A stretch of 21,524 nt of DNA, taken from the IMG/VR virus record IMGVR_UViG_2663762839_000009, positions 1 through 21,524 of that record; one strand, given 5' to 3'. Position 1 is the first letter of the stretch. Every line of letters begins with the position of its first letter. The notes beneath the pieces were generated by a model that did no database searches, had not been told where the DNA came from, and worked only from the letters and a program-made list of their open reading frames with translations. Below are positions 11,603 through 18,615 of the stretch, piece by piece. Source of the stretch: a virus (taxonomy: Duplodnaviria; Heunggongvirae; Uroviricota; Caudoviricetes). The translations under genes were made by a program, and so were the position numbers.

Positions 11603-12025
11603 TCAGAAAAGCCGTGGCTGCGTGCGTTCCTGATGCAGGCGACGCTGGTTGCGGATAACGGAGTAAATCTGCGTCTCTGACATCTGGTAGTGGCGGCGCA
11701 GGGTTTCAATTTTTTCGCCCTGGCTCCAGCGGGAAAAAATTTCATTATTGCGCAGTTCGGTGAAAAGGGATTCACCGACCGGGAGATAATAACCACGCCC
11801 GCCCATGTACCCGGCCTGTGCGGCTGCAACCTTACGGGCAAGCATTCCCGCCTGAGCAGGTTCAATCCCCTGACGGTGCAGTTCAGCACTGATCACATCA
11901 ACCAGGTCCCGCAGCGTGCCGGGCCAGTTCTTTTTCAGCTCATCATCAGGAATATCATCCAGACGGTCAATCAGCGCGTGCAGCTGTTCGCTGTCACCAA
12001 ACATGCTCATCTGTGTTTCAGCCAT
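11603..12025 (-). CDS. Mor/C-family transcriptional activator
   Basis: 140-aa ORF with a C-terminal HTH-like region (...ETLRRHYQMSETQIYSVIRNQRR...) in the Mu position between gemA and the lysis gene; preceded by a terminator-like hairpin. Confidence 0.75.
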   Translation of the reverse strand: MAETQMSMFGDSEQLHALIDRLDDIPDDELKKNWPGTLRDLVDVISAELHRQGIEPAQAGMLARKVAAAQAGYMGGRGYYLPVGESLFTELRNNEIFSRWSQGEKIETLRRHYQMSETQIYSVIRNQRRLHQERTQPRLF

Positions 12026-12065: not shown

Positions 12066-12090
12066 AAAAATCCCGCGCTGTGGCGGGGTT
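12066..12090 (-). terminator. Candidate intrinsic terminator at the end of the early operon
   Basis: On the minus strand: CCCGC-cacagc-GCGGG stem followed by ATTTTTATTTT, directly after the gemA stop. Confidence 0.45.
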
Positions 12091-12672: not shown

Positions 12673-13083
12673 ATGAAAATAGATTACGATGAAGTATTAA
12701 GTATTCTCACAACTTTTCAGGATGCTGAAACACCTTTCCTTACACTACAGGATCTGGGCATGGCTGAGGCAGAAGGAGAGGAAAAGGATAAAAAAGTTTT
12801 TCATCTTATGCTTCTCGCTGATAATGGCTCAATTGTTAATGGTGATATGCAGTCAGAAACACCCAAATATATTGGTTTCTTTTTCCATTCTCTGGGCGTT
12901 GGTTTCAGAAACACGCCCATTATGCTTACCCAGCAGGGGCATGATTTAGCTAACGCCCTGAGAAAAAAACCAATCCTTGAAAGAATCAAAAAGGAGTTTA
13001 CAGACGCACCATTTGATCTAATTAAAGAAGTTACCAAATCAATGTTAACCAGGTTCGTCAAAGAACGTATTGGGATTGACTGA
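12673..13083 (+). CDS. Hypothetical protein, opposite-strand AT-rich accessory gene
   Basis: 136-aa ORF on the plus strand inside an otherwise minus-strand operon; AAAGG Shine-Dalgarno 7 nt upstream; visibly AT-rich codon usage; own hairpin plus T-run downstream; 3' end overlaps the convergent gene 13045..13353 by about 39 nt. Confidence 0.6.
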   Translation: MKIDYDEVLSILTTFQDAETPFLTLQDLGMAEAEGEEKDKKVFHLMLLADNGSIVNGDMQSETPKYIGFFFHSLGVGFRNTPIMLTQQGHDLANALRKKPILERIKKEFTDAPFDLIKEVTKSMLTRFVKERIGID

Positions 13084-13353
13084 ACAACTTAATTCAGCCA
13101 GTAATCGCAGGGCGGCGACAGCCGCCTGCTTGTCACTTCTTTTAGCTATTTCCGCAAGAGTATGCACAATCCATAACGGACTTAACGCCACGGCTGAATC
13201 CAGAATCATGTCATCCATAATAATTTCTGGCATATCCCGCTTGTCACATTCTTTATCCATAAAAGAAACGAATTTCTCTGCATCTTCCGGTTTCATGCCT
13301 CCGGCGATAAGGATTTTGCGATATTCATAAGACGATCTTAATTCAATACTCAT
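13045..13353 (-). CDS. Hypothetical protein (102 aa)
   Basis: ATG at 13353 preceded by AGGTGA; AT-rich; acidic protein. Confidence 0.5.
   Translation of the reverse strand: MSIELRSSYEYRKILIAGGMKPEDAEKFVSFMDKECDKRDMPEIIMDDMILDSAVALSPLWIVHTLAEIAKRSDKQAAVAALRLLAELSCSVNPNTFFDEPG
13107..13145 (+). terminator. Candidate intrinsic terminator for the plus-strand accessory gene
   Basis: GCAGGGCGGCG-aca-GCCGCCTGC stem followed by TTGTCACTTCTTTT, about 25 nt after the stop at 13083; lies inside the coding sequence of the convergent minus-strand gene. Confidence 0.45.
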
Positions 13354-13368
13354 TATTCACCTGCCTGC

Positions 13369-13761
13369 TTAATCTGTTTCCAGTGCTTTGCTACGGGCTA
13401 TAGCCTCACATTCAAAAAACACCGACTCCGGCACGCGCTCTTTTAATTCACGAACAAGGAAATCATTAACGCGTTCATGACGTCTTATATTTCTTTCCTT
13501 TTCCTCCTGGCGCAATACAGCAAGGCGGTATTCAACAGCCCGGCGTTGTTTCTGAAAGACAGCCAGTGCTTTTCTGGCAGCATTACGCCATGCATCATCG
13601 CCACATGGTGCGTATTCAAGCTGAAATTTAATCTCTTCAATAGTTTCTTTGATTTTTGCCAGCAAGCTAAGACAGTCGCTTATTGTCTCCAGCTTTTCAT
13701 TATCAATATAACTTCTCACGCATTCACCTCCCGTAATTCCGGTAAAGCCGAAATATGACAC
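13369..13761 (-). CDS. Hypothetical coiled-coil protein
   Basis: ORF 13369..13761; the true start may be the GTG at 13719, which overlaps the upstream stop as GTGA. Charged helical sequence (...RKALAVFQKQRRAVEYRLAVLRQEEKERNIRRHERV...). Confidence 0.5.
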   Translation of the reverse strand: MSYFGFTGITGGECVRSYIDNEKLETISDCLSLLAKIKETIEEIKFQLEYAPCGDDAWRNAARKALAVFQKQRRAVEYRLAVLRQEEKERNIRRHERVNDFLVRELKERVPESVFFECEAIARSKALETD

Positions 13762-14045
13762 CAGTGCGTCACCTGTCCGTCTTCATCTTCAAGGCAGGCT
13801 CCGGTTTCTTCATCAACAAAAAAGCCTTCATACCCCATATGGCCGATGCGCAGCTCCTGACGGTGACCATACTGAACAATCAGCACGGCAGCCTCCATAT
13901 CAGGTGGGAAAGCATCATTCAGTGAATGCCAGGGATAACCGCGTAAATCCCCGAAATAAACACCGGTCAGCGTTCCGCCACAGAGCGGCATTCCGGCGGC
14001 ACACACAAGAGGTTCATCTGATTCAACAAATAAGGTCGTTATCAT
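13716..14045 (-). CDS. Hypothetical protein (109 aa)
   Basis: ORF translationally coupled to its neighbours (overlaps 14042..14593 by 4 nt). Confidence 0.5.
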   Translation of the reverse strand: MITTLFVESDEPLVCAAGMPLCGGTLTGVYFGDLRGYPWHSLNDAFPPDMEAAVLIVQYGHRQELRIGHMGYEGFFVDEETGACLEDEDGQVTHWCHISALPELREVNA

Positions 14046-14593
14046 GGCGTTAACTCCCGTAATACAGCGTCCTCGGCAGTCCGGCGACGGTAATAAACTG
14101 CGTGAGCAGAATGTTCAGATATTCCAAACTTTTCGCCAATTTCCCGGAATGACAGACGGCGTGGGTAATCGGAATCACGCAGCGCACGTATAAGACGTAC
14201 ATCATCATCAGATATGTGCGTGCCGGGGCGTAACTCTCCGCACTTTGTTAATCCAGCACCAATCATTCCTGCCCGACATCTGACAGAATCTTTATTACGT
14301 CCGAGATATTCTCCCATTTGCTGGCAGGTCATTGTTCTGGCATTTTTTCGAATAAACTTATCTTCATCAGGTGTAAATCTTGGGTGTTTATATTTCAGTA
14401 ACTCCGGGTATGAACTGCGCAATACACCAGTCCGGTTATATACAGCCCAGACAGTTCTTTTTATTCTGGCAGCAATATCCTTAACCGGGGTGGATGAATA
14501 AAGCGCAATCAGCAGCGCATCTTCTTCAGGTGTCCACGGACGGACATGAGCGGGGGCGCGACCTTTTAGTCCCATGGGTTGTAATTTCATCAT
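14042..14593 (-). CDS. Putative DNA-binding protein with three internal Myb/SANT-like helix-turn-helix repeats
   Basis: Three repeats of the pattern hydrophobic-T/S-acidic-acidic-helix: WTPEEDALLIALYSSTPVKDIAARIKRTVWAVYNR / FTPDEDKFIRKNARTMTCQQMGEYLGRNKDSVRCR / ISDDDVRLIRALRDSDYPRRLSFREIGEKFGISEHSAHAVYYRR. Confidence 0.55.
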   Translation of the reverse strand: MMKLQPMGLKGRAPAHVRPWTPEEDALLIALYSSTPVKDIAARIKRTVWAVYNRTGVLRSSYPELLKYKHPRFTPDEDKFIRKNARTMTCQQMGEYLGRNKDSVRCRAGMIGAGLTKCGELRPGTHISDDDVRLIRALRDSDYPRRLSFREIGEKFGISEHSAHAVYYRRRTAEDAVLRELTP

Positions 14594-14596
14594 GCA

Positions 14597-15112
14597 TCAC
14601 CCCCTGACTCGCTTTTCAGCAGCATAAAACTCATCAGACAGTATTTCGGTCATTTTCTGTTTTGCGGGTTTTACGCCGCACTGAAGGTAAATCACATCGT
14701 CAACGCAGAACCACTTCACAGGGCCAAACAGGATTGCCGAGAAATCAATACCCAACCAGAACAACAGCGCATCGGTTCTGGCATACGTGACGGGCGAATA
14801 TTCACGCCACAGACTGTTCAGTTCATCAGAGGCAACACGCAGGGTTTTAGGGATACGTGATGTGCGCGGTGTGCAGCTCCAGCCATTCGACGCAGTCGGT
14901 TTTCGCCATAAGTCGCGATGAAAAGGATATTTGTCCTCCGTAAAACGCAGTCCCTTAAAGTAAAATCCACTGATACCGGATACAAATACCGACCGGCACG
15001 CAACATTCAGCACGGCCTCAAGGCGTTTTGCCTCATCCTTAACTTTCTGGCAGTCCTGCTGGTATTTTTGCCACGCAGCCAGCGCGGAAGGGTTTGATGT
15101 TTTAAAGAACAT
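14597..15112 (-). CDS. Hypothetical protein (171 aa)
   Basis: ORF whose ATG overlaps the stop of the upstream gene (TAATG at 15112); no recognisable motif. Confidence 0.5.
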   Translation of the reverse strand: MFFKTSNPSALAAWQKYQQDCQKVKDEAKRLEAVLNVACRSVFVSGISGFYFKGLRFTEDKYPFHRDLWRKPTASNGWSCTPRTSRIPKTLRVASDELNSLWREYSPVTYARTDALLFWLGIDFSAILFGPVKWFCVDDVIYLQCGVKPAKQKMTEILSDEFYAAEKRVRG

Positions 15113-15645
15113 TACGCCACCTCCGCAGATATCCCGGCAGGCGCTGCTGTCCGGTCAACAATCAGGTAGCGCAGAACATGTTCAGTGATATTCCAGCCGC
15201 TTAAACCGCAGATAATGACGCCCAGGCGTATGTCGATATACGCCATCACAAACTGGGGCACGCCTTCTTTCATGGCCTGCTCATCAACTTCTGCCACCAC
15301 ATAAACGGTTTCACAGGTCAGAACGCCCTGAGCAAATTCCCACGCCATCGACGGAATATCATGCCCCTCAATCCATGGCAGGGATTTTCTGAAGCCGCAC
15401 CACTGAACATCATCAGCCGCAGATTCCTGGCTGCATTTGCGACGAACCGGCTGCACCGGGCGGGGGCGCGGAATATCATAAAAACCGTTACATTCCGTCA
15501 GCACGCCTGCATCAACCGCATCACGCAGAAAATAAACCATGGAGGATGGCGGCATATTCATTTTTTCAGCCAGTACACCGCAGGTCAGGCGGCCATAAAT
15601 ACACAGCCAGTTTTTAACCCCTTCAAGCACTTTTGCATCAATCAT
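15112..15645 (-). CDS. Hypothetical protein with N-terminal winged-helix-like region
   Basis: 177-aa ORF, first gene after the AT-rich spacer downstream of gam; N-terminus GRLTCGVLAEKMNMPPSSMVYFLRDAVDAGVL resembles a wHTH. Confidence 0.5.
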   Translation of the reverse strand: MIDAKVLEGVKNWLCIYGRLTCGVLAEKMNMPPSSMVYFLRDAVDAGVLTECNGFYDIPRPRPVQPVRRKCSQESAADDVQWCGFRKSLPWIEGHDIPSMAWEFAQGVLTCETVYVVAEVDEQAMKEGVPQFVMAYIDIRLGVIICGLSGWNITEHVLRYLIVDRTAAPAGISAEVA

Positions 15646-15790
15646 GATTTATTTCCCCACCACATTATTAATGACGATATAAACGTATTTCATATTTCTT
15701 AACCCTTATTTTCTGTTTTCAGGCGCAAGCAGTCCCCTGACGCGAGCGCCATAATTAAAATGAAGTGATATTTAATTGATTAATGTGGTG

Positions 15791-16321
15791 TTATTTATTC
15801 AGTCCGGCGTCCTGTTCAAAAGGCTCGACATAAAAACTTTCAGCGCCTTTATTCACCTTGATACCGGCAATGCCTTTCACAGCATCCGGCTCCGCCAGGA
15901 CGGCTTCCTTGTTCACTTCCTCTTTCGTGCGGATGAAACGCTCAAGCCCCATACGGCGCAGCATTTCAATCACACCTTCCACATCACGGCTGACGCTGCA
16001 TGATGGCGTTCCCAGCCGCCATGACACCGTTCCGGTGGTCAGATTGGCTGTTTTGGTTTTGCCGCCGTTCGTCAGCTCATCACGGTTGGTTTTGCACCAG
16101 TCCTGAATCCCTTTAAAAAGCACTTTGATTTGCTTTTTAAGATTTTCAATCTGCGGCGTATAACGGGCGGTGATTTCTGCCACTTCGTCATTCATCGCCG
16201 TTTCCAGGCGCAGCGCCTCTCGCTGAATATCTCCCAGGGTGCGGATATCACGGCTGACTTCTTCCCGGGTCTGCGGTGCCGCCTCGGCTGCGGCCTTTAA
16301 TTTTGTAACGCGTTTAGCCAT
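15791..16321 (-). CDS. gam: Gam-like host-nuclease inhibitor (Mu Gam/Ku-like DNA end-binding protein)
   Basis: 176-aa ORF; ...EVSRDIRTLGDIQREALRLETAMNDEVAEITARY...WCKTNRDELTNGGKTKTANLTTGTVSWR...FIRTKEEVNKEAVLAEP... is recognised as Mu Gam. Confidence 0.8.
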   Translation of the reverse strand: MAKRVTKLKAAAEAAPQTREEVSRDIRTLGDIQREALRLETAMNDEVAEITARYTPQIENLKKQIKVLFKGIQDWCKTNRDELTNGGKTKTANLTTGTVSWRLGTPSCSVSRDVEGVIEMLRRMGLERFIRTKEEVNKEAVLAEPDAVKGIAGIKVNKGAESFYVEPFEQDAGLNK

Positions 16322-16332
16322 TTTGTTTTTCC

Positions 16333-16626
16333 TTATTGCAGTGTGCCTGATGCTTTATGCACGCGGTGGCGTTTAATGATGGCATCCGCTCCAAAAGACT
16401 GTGCAGATGCCTGAAATTCCGCTGAGAGAAACTGAATAATTGCAGGACTGTGATACTGGAGAATACTTGCATAAACGTCACAGAGTGACGTCGGCCTGTT
16501 ATCCGTATCACGTTCTGTTTTCACATCCACTCCAATCTTTTCATGCACTTCAACACAGTCATTGCCTGCCAACTTTTCGTCATGCGAAACATGATTAAAT
16601 TCAAAAATAACGCGTACTTTGCTCAT
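16333..16626 (-). CDS. Small hypothetical protein, paralogue B of a tandem pair
   Basis: Start ATG at 16626 with AGGGG Shine-Dalgarno (the ORF track starts further upstream at 16653). N-terminus MSKVRVIFEFNHV... parallels MSKVVRIIFEYKEDV... of the upstream ORF. Confidence 0.5.
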   Translation of the reverse strand: MSKVRVIFEFNHVSHDEKLAGNDCVEVHEKIGVDVKTERDTDNRPTSLCDVYASILQYHSPAIIQFLSAEFQASAQSFGADAIIKRHRVHKASGTLQ

Positions 16627-16630
16627 GGAA

Positions 16631-16903
16631 TTACCCCTGTTGATTAAATTCATTACCGTTAATAACCCCGGAAGCCATGCCTCTGTCTTTCATGAATGCA
16701 CTGGCTTTCATTGCCACAAACTCTGCGAAGTTTCTGCTTTCTGCCAGCATAACCACCCCAAAAATCATGGCGGGTCCATTATCTTTCTTCTTTATTCCGG
16801 TTGAACGTATATCCAGACTTACCCCTCTGTGCGTGCTGCCATCAGAGTTTTTGCAGATAACATCTTCCTTGTATTCGAAAATAATGCGTACGACTTTACT
16901 CAT
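16631..16903 (-). CDS. Small hypothetical protein, paralogue A of a tandem pair
   Basis: 90-aa ORF with GAGGA Shine-Dalgarno; shares N-terminal and internal motifs (AEF.A.KAS.F) with ORF 16333..16626. Confidence 0.5.
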   Translation of the reverse strand: MSKVVRIIFEYKEDVICKNSDGSTHRGVSLDIRSTGIKKKDNGPAMIFGVVMLAESRNFAEFVAMKASAFMKDRGMASGVINGNEFNQQG

Positions 16904-17181
16904 CCTCTGGTCCTCGTTCTGTTTGGATAACTGACCCGGCGTCTAACCTCACGGCAGAACCGAATCATGGCATTAAAGGCTTCTTCCTCCGTCACCGCTT
17001 CCGGTATCCCCGGAACCAGTAACTGCTCCTGTTCATCACGTCCATGACGCGCCATAACCTCAATCACATGCCGTACCGTGGCAGGCTTTCCGGCAACTAT
17101 CGGCAATGCACCTTCCGGCAGGACGTAACCAAACTCAATAAGACCACTCGACCACGCCCATGCAATGAGATTTTTTTTCAC
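16900..17181 (-). CDS. Hypothetical protein (93 aa)
   Basis: ORF in the tightly packed early operon between B and gam. Confidence 0.45.
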   Translation of the reverse strand: MKKNLIAWAWSSGLIEFGYVLPEGALPIVAGKPATVRHVIEVMARHGRDEQEQLLVPGIPEAVTEEEAFNAMIRFCREVRRRVSYPNRTRTRG

Positions 17182-17449: not shown

Positions 17450-17677
17450 TTAGCTGACTTGTTTCGCACCAACAGAACGGCATATTCCGCTGTAAACTTC
17501 TGTCGCACCTTCGCGATCAAGTCCGGCAGATATCACCATTCGTGTGCGGTCATTAAATTCAAAAAGTAAATCGCCACATTCTTTATTTTCGGCCAGTGAA
17601 ATCACCTTCACGTTATCGAAATTAACCAGGTAAAAGCGTCCGTAAATATCAGGAATATTAAATACCGCCATAATCAC
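17450..17677 (-). CDS. Hypothetical small early protein (75 aa)
   Basis: ORF starting 4 nt inside the end of the B gene (translational coupling). Confidence 0.45.
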   Translation of the reverse strand: MIMAVFNIPDIYGRFYLVNFDNVKVISLAENKECGDLLFEFNDRTRMVISAGLDREGATEVYSGICRSVGAKQVS

Positions 17678-18615
17678 ACCTGTGAGAGTAATTCAGGGTT
17701 GGTATAAACCTCTTTAAAGGCCGCATTAATATGTTTTTCTGTCAGCGCCGCGCCTTCACCGCTGGCGGTGAGCCACGCCTGGTTAAGCGTATGTGTCAGA
17801 ACGCGTAACGCTCCCGGCTTTTCAGCGATAGCCTGCATGACGGCCAGCTCGGCCTCACCACTGATCCCCCACGCCATGGCAATGGCCAGCACATCCGCCT
17901 TTTTGGCCTTGCGAAGTTGTTTTGTACGGGCAAGACGGCTGAACAGGCGCGATAAATCATCAAAGGCGCGGCGTCCACCTTTAAACAATCCGCGCGGGTT
18001 ACCAATAAGCACCATCCCGATCCCCGTGGCGTCCTGAATTGCCCGGAGTTGCTCCAGACCGTCAATACCAAGATGATCCGCCTCATCCACAATCACCAGT
18101 CCACGCGTTCCCATCAGGCGACGGCGGATGGCGCGGGATAATGCCCCTTTGTTCGCGCGGGTGTAATCAATCCCCAGCGCATCGGCCAGCTCCAGCAGAC
18201 ACTCCGTGACGCTGGAGTGCGCGGGTGACAGGGTGATCATCCAGGTGTTTGGTTGCTCCTGGCAGTAATTACGGGCAGTGGCCGTTTTACCCACACCCGG
18301 TACGCCCACAATAACGTTAATACAGCCCATCAGGCGAACCGCCTGAAACAGTGCGCGCAGCTCCTGGACTGTCTGAGTTTCCACAAACTGCGGCGGTTCC
18401 GGCAGTGCGCTTTGTTTATTCCAGTTCTCATACCAGGAGCGCAGGGAAGCAGCCACAGCAGCGTTATCGCCTTTATATTTTCCCTTACGGAAAGCCGATA
18501 ATGTGCCGTCGGAAATTCCCGCCTCTCTGGCGATGGCATACTGCGTCAGTACGCCGCCATCAATAAGTTCATCAATGGTCTTGATTACATCGTTAATATC
18601 GGTCATATTATTCAC
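17674..18615 (-). CDS. MuB-like transposition target-capture ATPase
   Basis: 313-aa ORF with N-terminal HTH-like region and Walker A motif GVPGVGKT; located directly downstream of the transposase gene as in Mu. Confidence 0.85.
   Translation of the reverse strand: MNNMTDINDVIKTIDELIDGGVLTQYAIAREAGISDGTLSAFRKGKYKGDNAAVAASLRSWYENWNKQSALPEPPQFVETQTVQELRALFQAVRLMGCINVIVGVPGVGKTATARNYCQEQPNTWMITLSPAHSSVTECLLELADALGIDYTRANKGALSRAIRRRLMGTRGLVIVDEADHLGIDGLEQLRAIQDATGIGMVLIGNPRGLFKGGRRAFDDLSRLFSRLARTKQLRKAKKADVLAIAMAWGISGEAELAVMQAIAEKPGALRVLTHTLNQAWLTASGEGAALTEKHINAAFKEVYTNPELLSQV

What the first reader, a model, noticed from the sequence alone, without database searches (positions are those of the whole stretch)
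14042..15645. Unassigned, translationally coupled early-operon genes between gam and the AT-rich island, including a triple HTH-repeat protein
Three consecutive genes (15112..15645, 14597..15112, 14042..14593) are coupled by overlapping stop/start codons and have no recognisable enzymatic motifs. The first has a winged-helix-like N-terminus. The third has three tandem Myb/SANT-like helix-turn-helix repeats (WTPEEDALL..., FTPDEDKFI..., ISDDDVRLI...), an unusual architecture for a small phage early protein. This stretch corresponds to the semi-essential region of Mu-like phages, where host-takeover and defence or anti-defence functions tend to accumulate, so these are candidates for an uncharacterised module.
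Basis: partly seen in the sequence, partly recalled or inferred. Interest (0 to 1): 0.55.

Follow-up and report, generated by a model that had tools for sequence, protein, structure and literature searches.

The report
Mu gp11, gp12, D5-like HTH protein
These are three real early genes of a Mu-like E. coli prophage: two are orthologues of phage Mu's uncharacterised gp11 and gp12, and the third is a three-unit helix-turn-helix DNA-binding protein of the widespread phage T5 D5-like family, so this is ordinary accessory phage content, not a new module.

Summary
The three ORFs exist at exactly the stated coordinates on the minus strand and are under purifying selection. Gene 1 (15112-15645) is the orthologue of phage Mu gp11 (68% identity, Pfam Gp11_C). 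Gene 2 (14597-15112) is the orthologue of Mu gp12 (55% identity, Pfam PF26885 in its homologues). Both families are catalogued but have no known function. Gene 3 (14042-14593) does fold into three three-helix HTH units. It is not an unusual architecture. It belongs to PHROG 323 ("transcriptional regulator, D5-like") and aligns collinearly with phage T5 D5. Mu's own gp9 is a two-unit relative, and thousands of proteins carry the same repeat. Units 1 and 2 are Myb/SANT-like and clearly homologous to each other. Unit 3 is a divergent HTH. The three genes are not an obligate module. gp12 occurs without gp11 in other Mu-like phages, and the D5-like gene also sits alone in the early operons of P2-like phages. 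No defence or anti-defence match was found. The most likely role of gene 3 is a basic dsDNA-binding early protein that modulates transcription or replication. This is inferred by analogy with T5 D5 and was not shown. One mildly interesting point: gene 3 exists as two old alleles that differ mainly in the third helices.

The parts
15112..15645 (-). Orthologue of phage Mu gp11 (177 aa, pI 4.9). It has a conserved N-terminal ~60 aa three-helix domain (probably winged-helix), a variable Pro-rich linker (residues ~62-80) and a C-terminal Gp11_C domain (residues 90-167).
14597..15112 (-). Orthologue of phage Mu gp12 (171 aa, pI 9.3), Pfam PF26885 'Mu-Gp12' family. Its start overlaps the gp11 stop (TAATG).
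   Evidence: 55% identity to Mu gp12. All 46 homologues carry precomputed PF26885. PGAP names it 'Mu-Gp12 family protein'. PHROG 2314. Distant homologues occur in Klebsiella, Pseudomonas, Vibrio and Acinetobacter phages.
14042..14593 (-). D5-like triple-HTH DNA-binding protein (183 aa, pI 9.9). Its ATG lies 3 nt after the gp12 stop, and its stop overlaps the next gene's ATG (ATGA).
   Evidence: PHROG 323 at 1.3e-52. hhalign to T5 D5 gives probability 96.7%, E 4.2e-10, over 151 columns. AF2 pLDDT 82.6. pI.
14543..14593 (-). Conserved N-terminal arm of the D5-like protein (residues 1-17, ..PMG.xGRxPAHV), predicted disordered.
   Evidence: Invariant M2, L4, G11, H16 and V17 in alignment A1. pLDDT 45-63.
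14417..14542 (-). HTH unit 1 (residues 18-59), Myb/SANT-like, beginning with the motif WTPEEDALL.
   Evidence: Helices 22-31, 37-44 and 48-59. Pfam Myb_DNA-binding at 20.7 bits, below the cut-off of 24.4. Homologous to unit 2 at E 2e-12.
14264..14383 (-). HTH unit 2 (residues 71-110), Myb/SANT-like, beginning with the motif FTPDEDKFI.
   Evidence: Helices 75-84, 90-97 and 101-110. hhalign comparison with unit 1. Units 1+2 (profile positions 17-115) are the part matched in tandem in multi-repeat proteins.
14051..14215 (-). HTH unit 3 (residues 127-169) plus a C-terminal helix (173-181). It is a divergent HTH with a nearly invariant second helix, FREIGEKF.
   Evidence: Helices 129-140, 149-156, 160-169 and 173-181. 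Sub-threshold HTH_AsnC-type and HTH_10 hits. Column entropy 0.08 for helix 2 and 1.54 for helix 3.
14090..14450 (-). Mosaic segment inside the D5-like gene that separates two old allele classes (about 71% amino-acid identity).
   Evidence: Nucleotide identity is 65-78% here against 88-100% in the flanks. dS is 0.89 inside against about 0.17 in the flanks, with dN/dS 0.25. Both classes are seen in E. coli prophages.
13716..14045 (-). Downstream gene coupled to the D5-like gene by an ATGA overlap (109 aa, very acidic, pI 4.3), function unknown. It is often but not always present next to the D5-like gene.
   Evidence: ORF list, junction sequence, PHROG 6925 unknown, pI, presence/absence table.
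15646..15790 (-). gam-gp11 spacer. It holds a hairpin (15722-15750) conserved with Mu, flanked by the inverted repeat CACCACATT (15782-15790) / AATGTGGTG (15658-15666).
   Evidence: Alignment with Mu and a relative. RNA fold z -2.7, with 0 of 200 shuffles as stable. Coordinates.

Best explanation
The stretch is part of the polycistronic early operon of a Mu-like E. coli prophage. It holds three independent accessory genes, not one dedicated module.

Shown: gene 1 is the orthologue of Mu gp11 and gene 2 is the orthologue of Mu gp12. Both functions are unknown. Their one-base stop/start overlap is conserved in Mu.

Shown: gene 3 is a basic protein of three tri-helical HTH units. It belongs to the phage T5 D5-like family (PHROG 323), to which Mu's shorter gp9 also belongs. 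It sits in a variable slot between gp12 and gemA, where Mu has the unrelated genes gp13 and gp14. The same gene occurs on its own in the early operons of P2-like phages.

Inferred: gene 3 binds double-stranded DNA. The third helix of each unit would sit in the major groove, with the units joined by flexible 11-18-residue linkers so that one molecule covers about two to three turns of DNA. Made early in lytic growth, it would modulate transcription and/or replication of phage or host DNA. This follows T5 D5, which is a DNA-binding protein needed for replication, late transcription and shut-off of earlier genes. In a Mu-type phage the role would be dispensable.

Inferred: the two old alleles, which differ mostly in the third helices, bind different sequences or partners. 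gp11 is probably a winged-helix protein with a family-specific C-terminal domain. I cannot assign a mechanism to gp12.
For: Context: the window matches an E. coli prophage at 99.9% identity. Gam, GemA and Mor flank the stretch, and MuB lies upstream.

Orthology of genes 1 and 2.

Gene 3 family: PHROG 323 at 1.3e-52. T5 D5 hits PHROG 323 at 1.2e-71. Collinear hhalign of gene 3 residues 17-171 to D5 residues 71-232, probability 96.7%, E 4.2e-10. Mu gp9 hits PHROG 323 at 5.2e-29 and matches profile positions 65-168, 33 bits.

Gene 3 fold: three 3-helix bundles, pLDDT 82.6. pI 9.9.

D5 function: the T5 GenBank note reads 'DNA-binding protein; required for DNA replication and late transcription; also is involved in shutoff'. 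D5's HTH is described as engaging DNA in PMC13405049.

Independence of the three genes: gp12 homologues in Klebsiella and Pseudomonas Mu-like phages have no gp11 or D5-like neighbour. Of 61 viral loci with the D5-like gene, 41 are Mu-like and 20 are P2-like, where it lies upstream of gpA without gp11, gp12 or the 109-aa gene. Mu has gp11 and gp12 but unrelated genes in the slot.

Operon: no promoter or terminator excess inside the stretch.

Alleles. Differences fall at helix 1 2/32, helix 2 4/24 and helix 3 18/32 positions, Fisher p 9e-6.
Against: - No DNA-binding, expression or phenotype data exist for this protein or for Mu gp9.
- Homology to T5 D5 is remote (25% identity), and D5 has about 70 extra N-terminal residues, so D5's function may not transfer.
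- Pfam HTH and Myb hits on this sequence are all below the curated cut-offs.
- Foldseek against the PDB gave only weak generic multi-HTH matches (best E 0.065).
- Inter-unit geometry is not confidently predicted (pTM 0.50).
- Helix 2 of units 1 and 2 is also variable across the wider family, so 'recognition-helix variation' is not unique to helix 3.
- The gp11 model is of low confidence.
Confidence: 0.6

Rival explanations
1. One reading: the three coupled genes form one functional module (a complex or pathway) for host takeover, defence or anti-defence.
For: Tight spacing in one operon. The order gp11-gp12-D5-like is kept in all 39 E. coli/Salmonella Mu-like loci that have enough flanking sequence. 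The region is the semi-essential early region, where accessory functions accumulate.
Against: The loci were selected for having the D5-like gene, so their shared order is not independent evidence. Mu, D108 and SfMu have gp11 and gp12 without it. gp12 homologues occur without gp11. The D5-like gene occurs alone in P2-like phages. There are no PADLOC hits. Short gaps and overlaps are the rule along this whole operon.
Confidence: 0.1
2. The D5-like protein acts in phage-host or phage-phage conflict instead of in the phage's own gene control. It could bind nucleic acid of a host immune system, or be sensed by one as T5 D5 is by a type IX retron. It could also repress a competing phage or prophage. 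The two alleles would then reflect escape or altered targeting.
For: T5 D5, a family member, is reported as the natural trigger of retron-Kva2 through its HTH binding msDNA (PMC13405049). The gene is an accessory cargo gene shared by unrelated temperate phage lineages. The allele differences concentrate in the third helices.
Against: Being a trigger is a liability, not a function. dN/dS is 0.25 and dS is 0.89 in the divergent segment, which indicates old alleles exchanged by recombination and not recent positive selection. There is no PADLOC match. No direct data exist.
Confidence: 0.12
3. The D5-like gene is a free-standing remnant of the DNA-targeting domain of a homing endonuclease or methylase, that is, a selfish or decaying element with no role for the phage.
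For: Weak PHROG hits to HNH endonuclease families. tblastn matches the N-terminal parts of mycobacteriophage HNH/methylase genes. BFVD matches include endonucleases with similar HTH arrays. A helicase fused to 9 repeats was also found.
Against: No nuclease domain is present or nearby. The 170-196 aa three-unit form is conserved across Escherichia, Salmonella, Klebsiella, Raoultella, Hafnia and Citrobacter. It is under purifying selection. It has invariant residues along its whole length.
Confidence: 0.05

Closest known systems
Phage T5 D5 protein (T5.118, 255 aa), the founding member of PHROG 323 'transcriptional regulator, D5-like'
   Same: Same PHROG family. Collinear alignment over all three HTH units, hhalign probability 96.7%. 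Both are expressed before late genes. D5 is a DNA-binding protein (GenBank note).
   Different: Only 25% identity. D5 has about 70 extra N-terminal residues. D5 belongs to a virulent phage and is required for replication and late transcription, whereas here the gene sits in a dispensable, variable slot of temperate phages. No biochemistry exists for this protein.
Phage Mu gp9 (E8, 99 aa, immediately upstream of gam)
   Same: Same PHROG 323. It matches units 2+3 of the profile, positions 65-168, 33 bits. It is also an early-operon gene of a transposable phage and is uncharacterised.
   Different: It has two units, not three (it lacks unit 1 and the N-terminal arm). It sits in a different slot, before gam and not after gp12. 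The window's gene at the gp9 position (16333-16626) is unrelated (PHROG 2230).
Phage Mu gp11 (Pfam PF25754 Gp11_C)
   Same: 68% identity, same length, same position after gam, and the same one-base overlap with gp12.
   Different: Nothing of note. The linker (residues ~62-80) is variable. Close relatives carry an extra 180-aa gene between gam and gp11, which this window lacks.
Phage Mu gp12 (Pfam PF26885, PGAP 'Mu-Gp12 family protein')
   Same: 55% identity over the full length and the same position.
   Different: Nothing of note. The family reaches further than gp11, with 26-30% identical homologues in Klebsiella, Pseudomonas, Vibrio and Acinetobacter phages.
Eukaryotic Myb/SANT repeats (Pfam PF00249), e.g. 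R2R3 Myb
   Same: Tri-helical HTH units in tandem, starting with a W/F-T-x-E-E-D motif. Several homologues pass the Pfam Myb threshold.
   Different: This sequence is below the threshold (20.7 against 24.4 bits). The regularly spaced Trp triad is not kept: only W20 and W49 in unit 1, and F73 in unit 2 (read from the sequence). Unit 3 is not Myb-like.
AsnC/Lrp family regulators (the name RefSeq gives many relatives)
   Same: A weak HTH_AsnC-type match in unit 3 (E 0.0012, 19.1 bits).
   Different: It is below the cut-off of 27 bits, and there is no C-terminal AsnC_trans_reg/RAM domain. The name is a misnomer.

Membership tests
T5 D5-like DNA-binding proteins (PHROG 323) | Significant match to the family profile | tested here: met
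   E 1.3e-52, 180 bits, residues 2-182 on profile positions 80-256. T5 D5 itself gives 1.2e-71.
T5 D5-like DNA-binding proteins (PHROG 323) | Collinear homology to T5 D5 itself | tested here: met
   hhalign probability 96.7%, E 4.2e-10, 151 columns, query residues 17-171 against D5 residues 71-232.
T5 D5-like DNA-binding proteins (PHROG 323) | Tandem tri-helical HTH units | tested here: met
   AF2 model, pLDDT 82.6, with three 3-helix bundles.
T5 D5-like DNA-binding proteins (PHROG 323) | Binds double-stranded DNA | not testable with these tools
   Only indirect support: pI 9.9 and the HTH fold.
T5 D5-like DNA-binding proteins (PHROG 323) | Needed for replication, late transcription and shut-off of earlier genes | not testable with these tools
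   This role is known for T5 D5 only (GenBank note). The gene's variable presence in Mu-like phages argues it is dispensable here.
Myb/SANT domain (Pfam PF00249) | Score at or above Pfam's gathering threshold | tested here: not met
   20.7 bits against 24.4. Some homologues do pass.
Myb/SANT domain (Pfam PF00249) | Three regularly spaced aromatic (Trp) residues per repeat | tested here: not met
   Read from the sequence: unit 1 has W20 and W49 only, unit 2 has F73 only, and unit 3 has none at the equivalent positions.
Myb/SANT domain (Pfam PF00249) | Tri-helical fold with helices 2-3 forming an HTH, in tandem repeats | tested here: met
   Units 1 and 2 are homologous to each other at E 2e-12.
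AsnC/Lrp family | N-terminal HTH plus C-terminal AsnC_trans_reg (RAM) domain | tested here: not met
   No PF01037 hit, and HTH_AsnC-type scores 19.1 bits against a cut-off of 27.
Mu gp11 family (Pfam PF25754) | Gp11_C domain above threshold, with orthology and synteny to Mu gp11 | tested here: met
   139 bits against 27. 68% identity. Position after gam and before gp12.
Mu gp12 family (Pfam PF26885) | Family domain, with orthology and synteny to Mu gp12 | tested here: met
   All homologues carry precomputed PF26885. 55% identity. PGAP name. The local Pfam copy lacks this model, so there was no direct hit.
Winged-helix DNA-binding domain (gp11 N-terminus) | Three helices followed by a beta-hairpin wing | tested here: inconclusive
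Known anti-phage defence systems (PADLOC-DB) | Match to any defence-protein model | tested here: not met
   No hit for any of the seven proteins between gam and gemA. Anti-defence libraries were not available.

The most novel reading that the evidence does not exclude
The D5-like gene is kept in enterobacterial temperate phages as two or more ancient specificity alleles whose differences sit in the DNA-contacting third helices. These alleles could direct an early-expressed phage factor to different DNA or nucleic-acid targets, such as promoters of rival prophages or the msDNA of HTH-sensing retrons. That would make it a portable conflict or specificity cassette shared by Mu-like and P2-like phages. 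Separately, gp11 (winged helix plus an unknown domain) and gp12 remain conserved Mu early proteins with no known fold relatives or function.
Probability: 0.1. Interest if true: 0.55.

Novelty: new member of a known kind. Interest (0 to 1): 0.22.

Why it matters
It matters little beyond annotation. The result replaces "hypothetical", "AsnC family" and "SANT/Myb" labels in hundreds of E. coli and Salmonella prophages with a consistent reading: Mu gp11, Mu gp12, and a T5 D5-like / Mu gp9-like multi-HTH DNA binder. It also shows that Mu's own gp9 belongs to that family. If the allele-specific third helices do encode different targets, the protein would be an easy entry point for studying what D5-like proteins do in temperate phages. 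That topic gained some interest when T5 D5 was reported as a retron trigger. gp11 and gp12 remain open questions of classic Mu biology, but nothing found here makes them directly testable in a new way.

Tried and rejected
- Raw self-alignment of the three units is too weak to decide. Profile-profile comparison was needed.
- Sequence searches of the PDB for all three proteins, as single sequences and as profiles, found nothing significant. The MIF and glutaredoxin matches at E about 1 are noise.
- Foldseek of the triple-HTH model against the PDB gave only generic multi-HTH hits at E >= 0.065.
- NCBIfam gave no hit for any protein.
- PADLOC gave no hit.
- BLASTP of gene 3 against Mu gp9 was not significant. 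The relationship appeared only with profiles.
- The gp11 structure prediction was of low confidence, so nothing is claimed about its C-terminal domain.
- Literature searches for Mu gp9, gp11 and gp12, for the Pfam accessions and for Myb-like phage early proteins found nothing relevant.
- The DRT4 trigger paper concerns T5 ORF55, not D5.
- I considered a conserved gp12 + D5-like gene pair because Lastavirus phages have both. I rejected it because the two genes lie about 3 kb apart there.
- I considered recent positive selection as the cause of the allele divergence. I rejected it because dS is 5-fold higher in the segment and dN/dS is 0.25.
Full report
WHAT THE WINDOW IS. The window is a Mu-like prophage of E. 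coli. Positions 13000-16400 match strain JE86-ST02 at 99.9% identity, and 232 of 5426 complete E. coli genomes hold a related stretch. The early operon runs on the minus strand: MuB (17674-18615), small ORFs, Gam (15791-16321), the three genes of the finding, three more small genes, an opposite-strand DUF2513 gene in an AT-rich patch (GC 0.42-0.43 at 12.5-13.5 kb), then GemA and a Mor/C-type activator. This is the semi-essential early region as defined for Mu (PMC4553209).

THE OBSERVATION. All three ORFs are at the stated coordinates, and PGAP calls the same genes in a near-identical prophage. They are real genes. Against a related prophage, dN/dS is 0.09 for gene 1, 0.10 for gene 2 and 0.21-0.25 over most of gene 3.

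Coupling is only partly as described. Genes 1 and 2 overlap by one base (TAATG), as do Mu gp11 and gp12. Gene 3's ATG lies 3 nt after gene 2's stop, so there is no overlap. A consensus scan finds no excess of promoters or terminators inside the stretch, which fits one long transcript.

GENES 1 AND 2. Gene 1 is 68% identical to Mu gp11 over its full length. It hits Pfam PF25754 (Gp11_C) at 139 bits against a cut-off of 27. Gene 2 is 55% identical to Mu gp12. All its homologues carry Pfam PF26885, and PGAP names one of them 'Mu-Gp12 family protein'. Both are therefore catalogued families without a known function. No paper in the library names them, and neither has a solved relative by sequence.

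gp11 is confined to E. coli, Shigella, Salmonella and Yersinia Mu-type phages. gp12 reaches Klebsiella, Pseudomonas, Vibrio and Acinetobacter phages at 26-30% identity. In the Klebsiella and Pseudomonas Mu-like phages it sits at the same relative position without any gp11 upstream.

GENE 3: ARCHITECTURE. The AF2 model (16-sequence alignment, pLDDT 82.6) shows three three-helix bundles at residues 22-59, 75-110 and 129-169, plus a C-terminal helix. The triple-HTH architecture is therefore real. The protein is basic, pI 9.9.

The units are not equally related. Shuffled-sequence tests on the raw sequence are weak (R1/R2 z 2.7; the others not significant). Profile-profile comparison gives R1 vs R2 at probability 97.7%, E 2e-12; R2 vs R3 at 69%, E 4e-5; and R1 vs R3 at 12%. 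Pfam hits on this sequence are all below threshold: Myb_DNA-binding at 20.7 against 24.4 bits in unit 1, and HTH_AsnC-type and HTH_10 in unit 3. The fair description is two Myb/SANT-like repeats followed by a divergent HTH.

GENE 3: FAMILY. The architecture is not unusual. The protein hits PHROG 323, 'transcriptional regulator, D5-like', at 1.3e-52. A profile of its 15 full-length homologues, searched against 1.84 billion representative proteins, finds 9764 proteins at E <= 1e-3. About 22 of the best 150 hits are full-length three-unit proteins of 169-216 aa. Most of the rest are long proteins with 3-9 tandem copies of units 1+2. Examples include a helicase fused to nine repeats, which scores 2e-41 on Pfam Myb_DNA-binding. 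Foldseek against viral models gives 21 matches at E <= 1e-3, including several jumbo-phage Goslar proteins, endonuclease fusions and a Vibrio-phage 'D5 protein'.

Phage T5 D5 itself is PHROG 323 (1.2e-71). It aligns collinearly with gene 3 across all three units: residues 17-171 against D5 residues 71-232, probability 96.7%, E 4.2e-10, 25% identity.

Mu also has a relative, which BLASTP missed. Mu gp9 (E8, 99 aa, just upstream of gam) is PHROG 323 at 5.2e-29. It matches profile positions 65-168, that is units 2+3. The family thus comes in nested sizes: D5 has an N-terminal part plus three units, this protein has three units, and Mu gp9 has two.

The three-unit form is spread through Escherichia, Salmonella, Klebsiella, Raoultella, Hafnia and Citrobacter. 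It is usually mislabelled 'AsnC family protein', although it has no AsnC C-terminal domain.

IS IT A MODULE? Mu has no homologue of gene 3 or of the four genes that follow it. It has the unrelated gp13, gp14 and gp15 in that slot. Among 61 viral contigs that encode a relative of gene 3, 41 are Mu-like, with the gene after gp12. The other 20 are P2-like. There the gene lies in the early operon upstream of replication gene A, with no gp11, no gp12 and no 109-aa neighbour. Together with gp12 occurring without gp11, this shows three genes with separate histories. Tight packing is simply how this operon is built. No protein between gam and gemA matches a PADLOC defence model.

TWO ALLELES OF GENE 3. 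E. coli Mu-like prophages carry gene 3 in two forms that are about 71% identical, while gp11, gp12 and the downstream genes stay 92-98% identical. The divergence is confined to about 14090-14450. In that segment dS is 0.89 against about 0.17 in the flanks, and dN/dS is 0.25. These are therefore old alleles moved by recombination, not products of recent positive selection.

The amino-acid differences fall on the third helices (18 of 32 positions) and the linkers. Helix 1 has 2 of 32 differences and helix 2 has 4 of 24. Helix 3 against helices 1+2 gives p 9e-6, and within the divergent segment alone p is 0.011. This is what a change of binding specificity would look like. However, helix 2 of units 1 and 2 is also variable across the wider family, so I treat this as a lead only.

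MECHANISM. Shown: family membership, fold, basic charge, early-operon position and mobility between phage lineages. Inferred: the protein binds dsDNA through the third helix of each unit, with flexible linkers (pTM 0.50, so the relative orientation of the units is not predicted). It would then modulate transcription and/or replication early in lytic growth.

This inference is by analogy with T5 D5. The T5 record describes D5 as a DNA-binding protein required for replication and late transcription and involved in shut-off. From my own recollection of the 1970s-80s T5 literature, which was not checked here, D5 is an abundant, cooperatively binding dsDNA protein.

A 2026 preprint reports T5 D5 as the natural trigger of a type IX retron, through its HTH binding msDNA (PMC13405049). 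That keeps a phage-host conflict reading alive, but it describes a liability and not a function.

I have no mechanism for gp12. For gp11 I can offer only 'probable winged-helix protein with a family-specific C-terminal domain'.

VERDICT. The interpretation overstates the novelty. Two genes are the known Mu gp11 and gp12 families, and the third is a new member of the known D5-like multi-HTH family. The functions of all three remain untested. Interest is low to modest.

Noticed in passing
window 15646-15790 (minus strand); L004-L006: Close relatives carry an extra 180-aa gene (PHROG 2260, unknown function) between gam and gp11, and this window lacks it. The remaining 145-nt spacer keeps a GC-rich hairpin (15722-15750) that is conserved with phage Mu. 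The spacer is bracketed by the inverted repeat CACCACATT / AATGTGGTG, folds better than all 200 shuffles (z -2.7), and holds a 14-codon mini-ORF (ATG at 15693) that ends just before the gp11 ribosome-binding site.
   Followed up: partly
window 13716-14045 (minus strand): The gene coupled to the D5-like gene by an ATGA overlap encodes a very acidic 109-aa protein (pI 4.3; 18 D+E against 4 K+R). It is PHROG 6925, function unknown. It accompanies the D5-like gene in many but not all Mu-like loci and in no P2-like locus. An acidic partner next to a basic DNA binder could be a modulator or a DNA mimic. This was not tested.
   Followed up: partly
window 14090-14450: The D5-like gene occurs as two old allele classes (about 71% amino-acid identity) with sharp mosaic boundaries inside otherwise 92-98% identical prophages. 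dS is 0.89 in the segment against 0.17 in the flanks. The differences concentrate in the third helix of each HTH unit.
   Followed up: yes
window 12673-13083 (+) and 13045-13353 (-): A DUF2513 gene lies on the opposite strand in the AT-rich patch. It converges on, and overlaps by 39 nt, the last small early gene. It is the positional counterpart of Mu gp15, which is also on the opposite strand, but the two are unrelated in sequence.
   Followed up: no
window 11603-12025 and 12072-12087 (minus strand): The region examined (mainly 11.6-18.6 kb) shows only one Mor/C-type activator. It is closer to Mu C (40%) than to Mu Mor (28%), whereas Mu has both. A terminator-like hairpin sits just upstream of it, after gemA.
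   Followed up: no
window 16900-17181 (minus strand): This small early ORF hits PHROG 1518, annotated 'host nuclease inhibitor'. That would be a second candidate nuclease inhibitor besides Gam.
   Followed up: no
L002 (phage Mu) 5482-5781: Mu gp9 (E8) is a two-unit member of the T5 D5-like family (PHROG 323, 5.2e-29). This link is not visible by BLASTP. The gene at the equivalent position in this window (16333-16626) is unrelated to it.
   Followed up: yes
RefSeq/GenBank names of homologues (P0002-P0014, P0023 and others): Most relatives of the D5-like protein are named 'AsnC family protein'. This rests only on a sub-threshold HTH_AsnC-type match, and no AsnC effector domain is present.
   Followed up: yes
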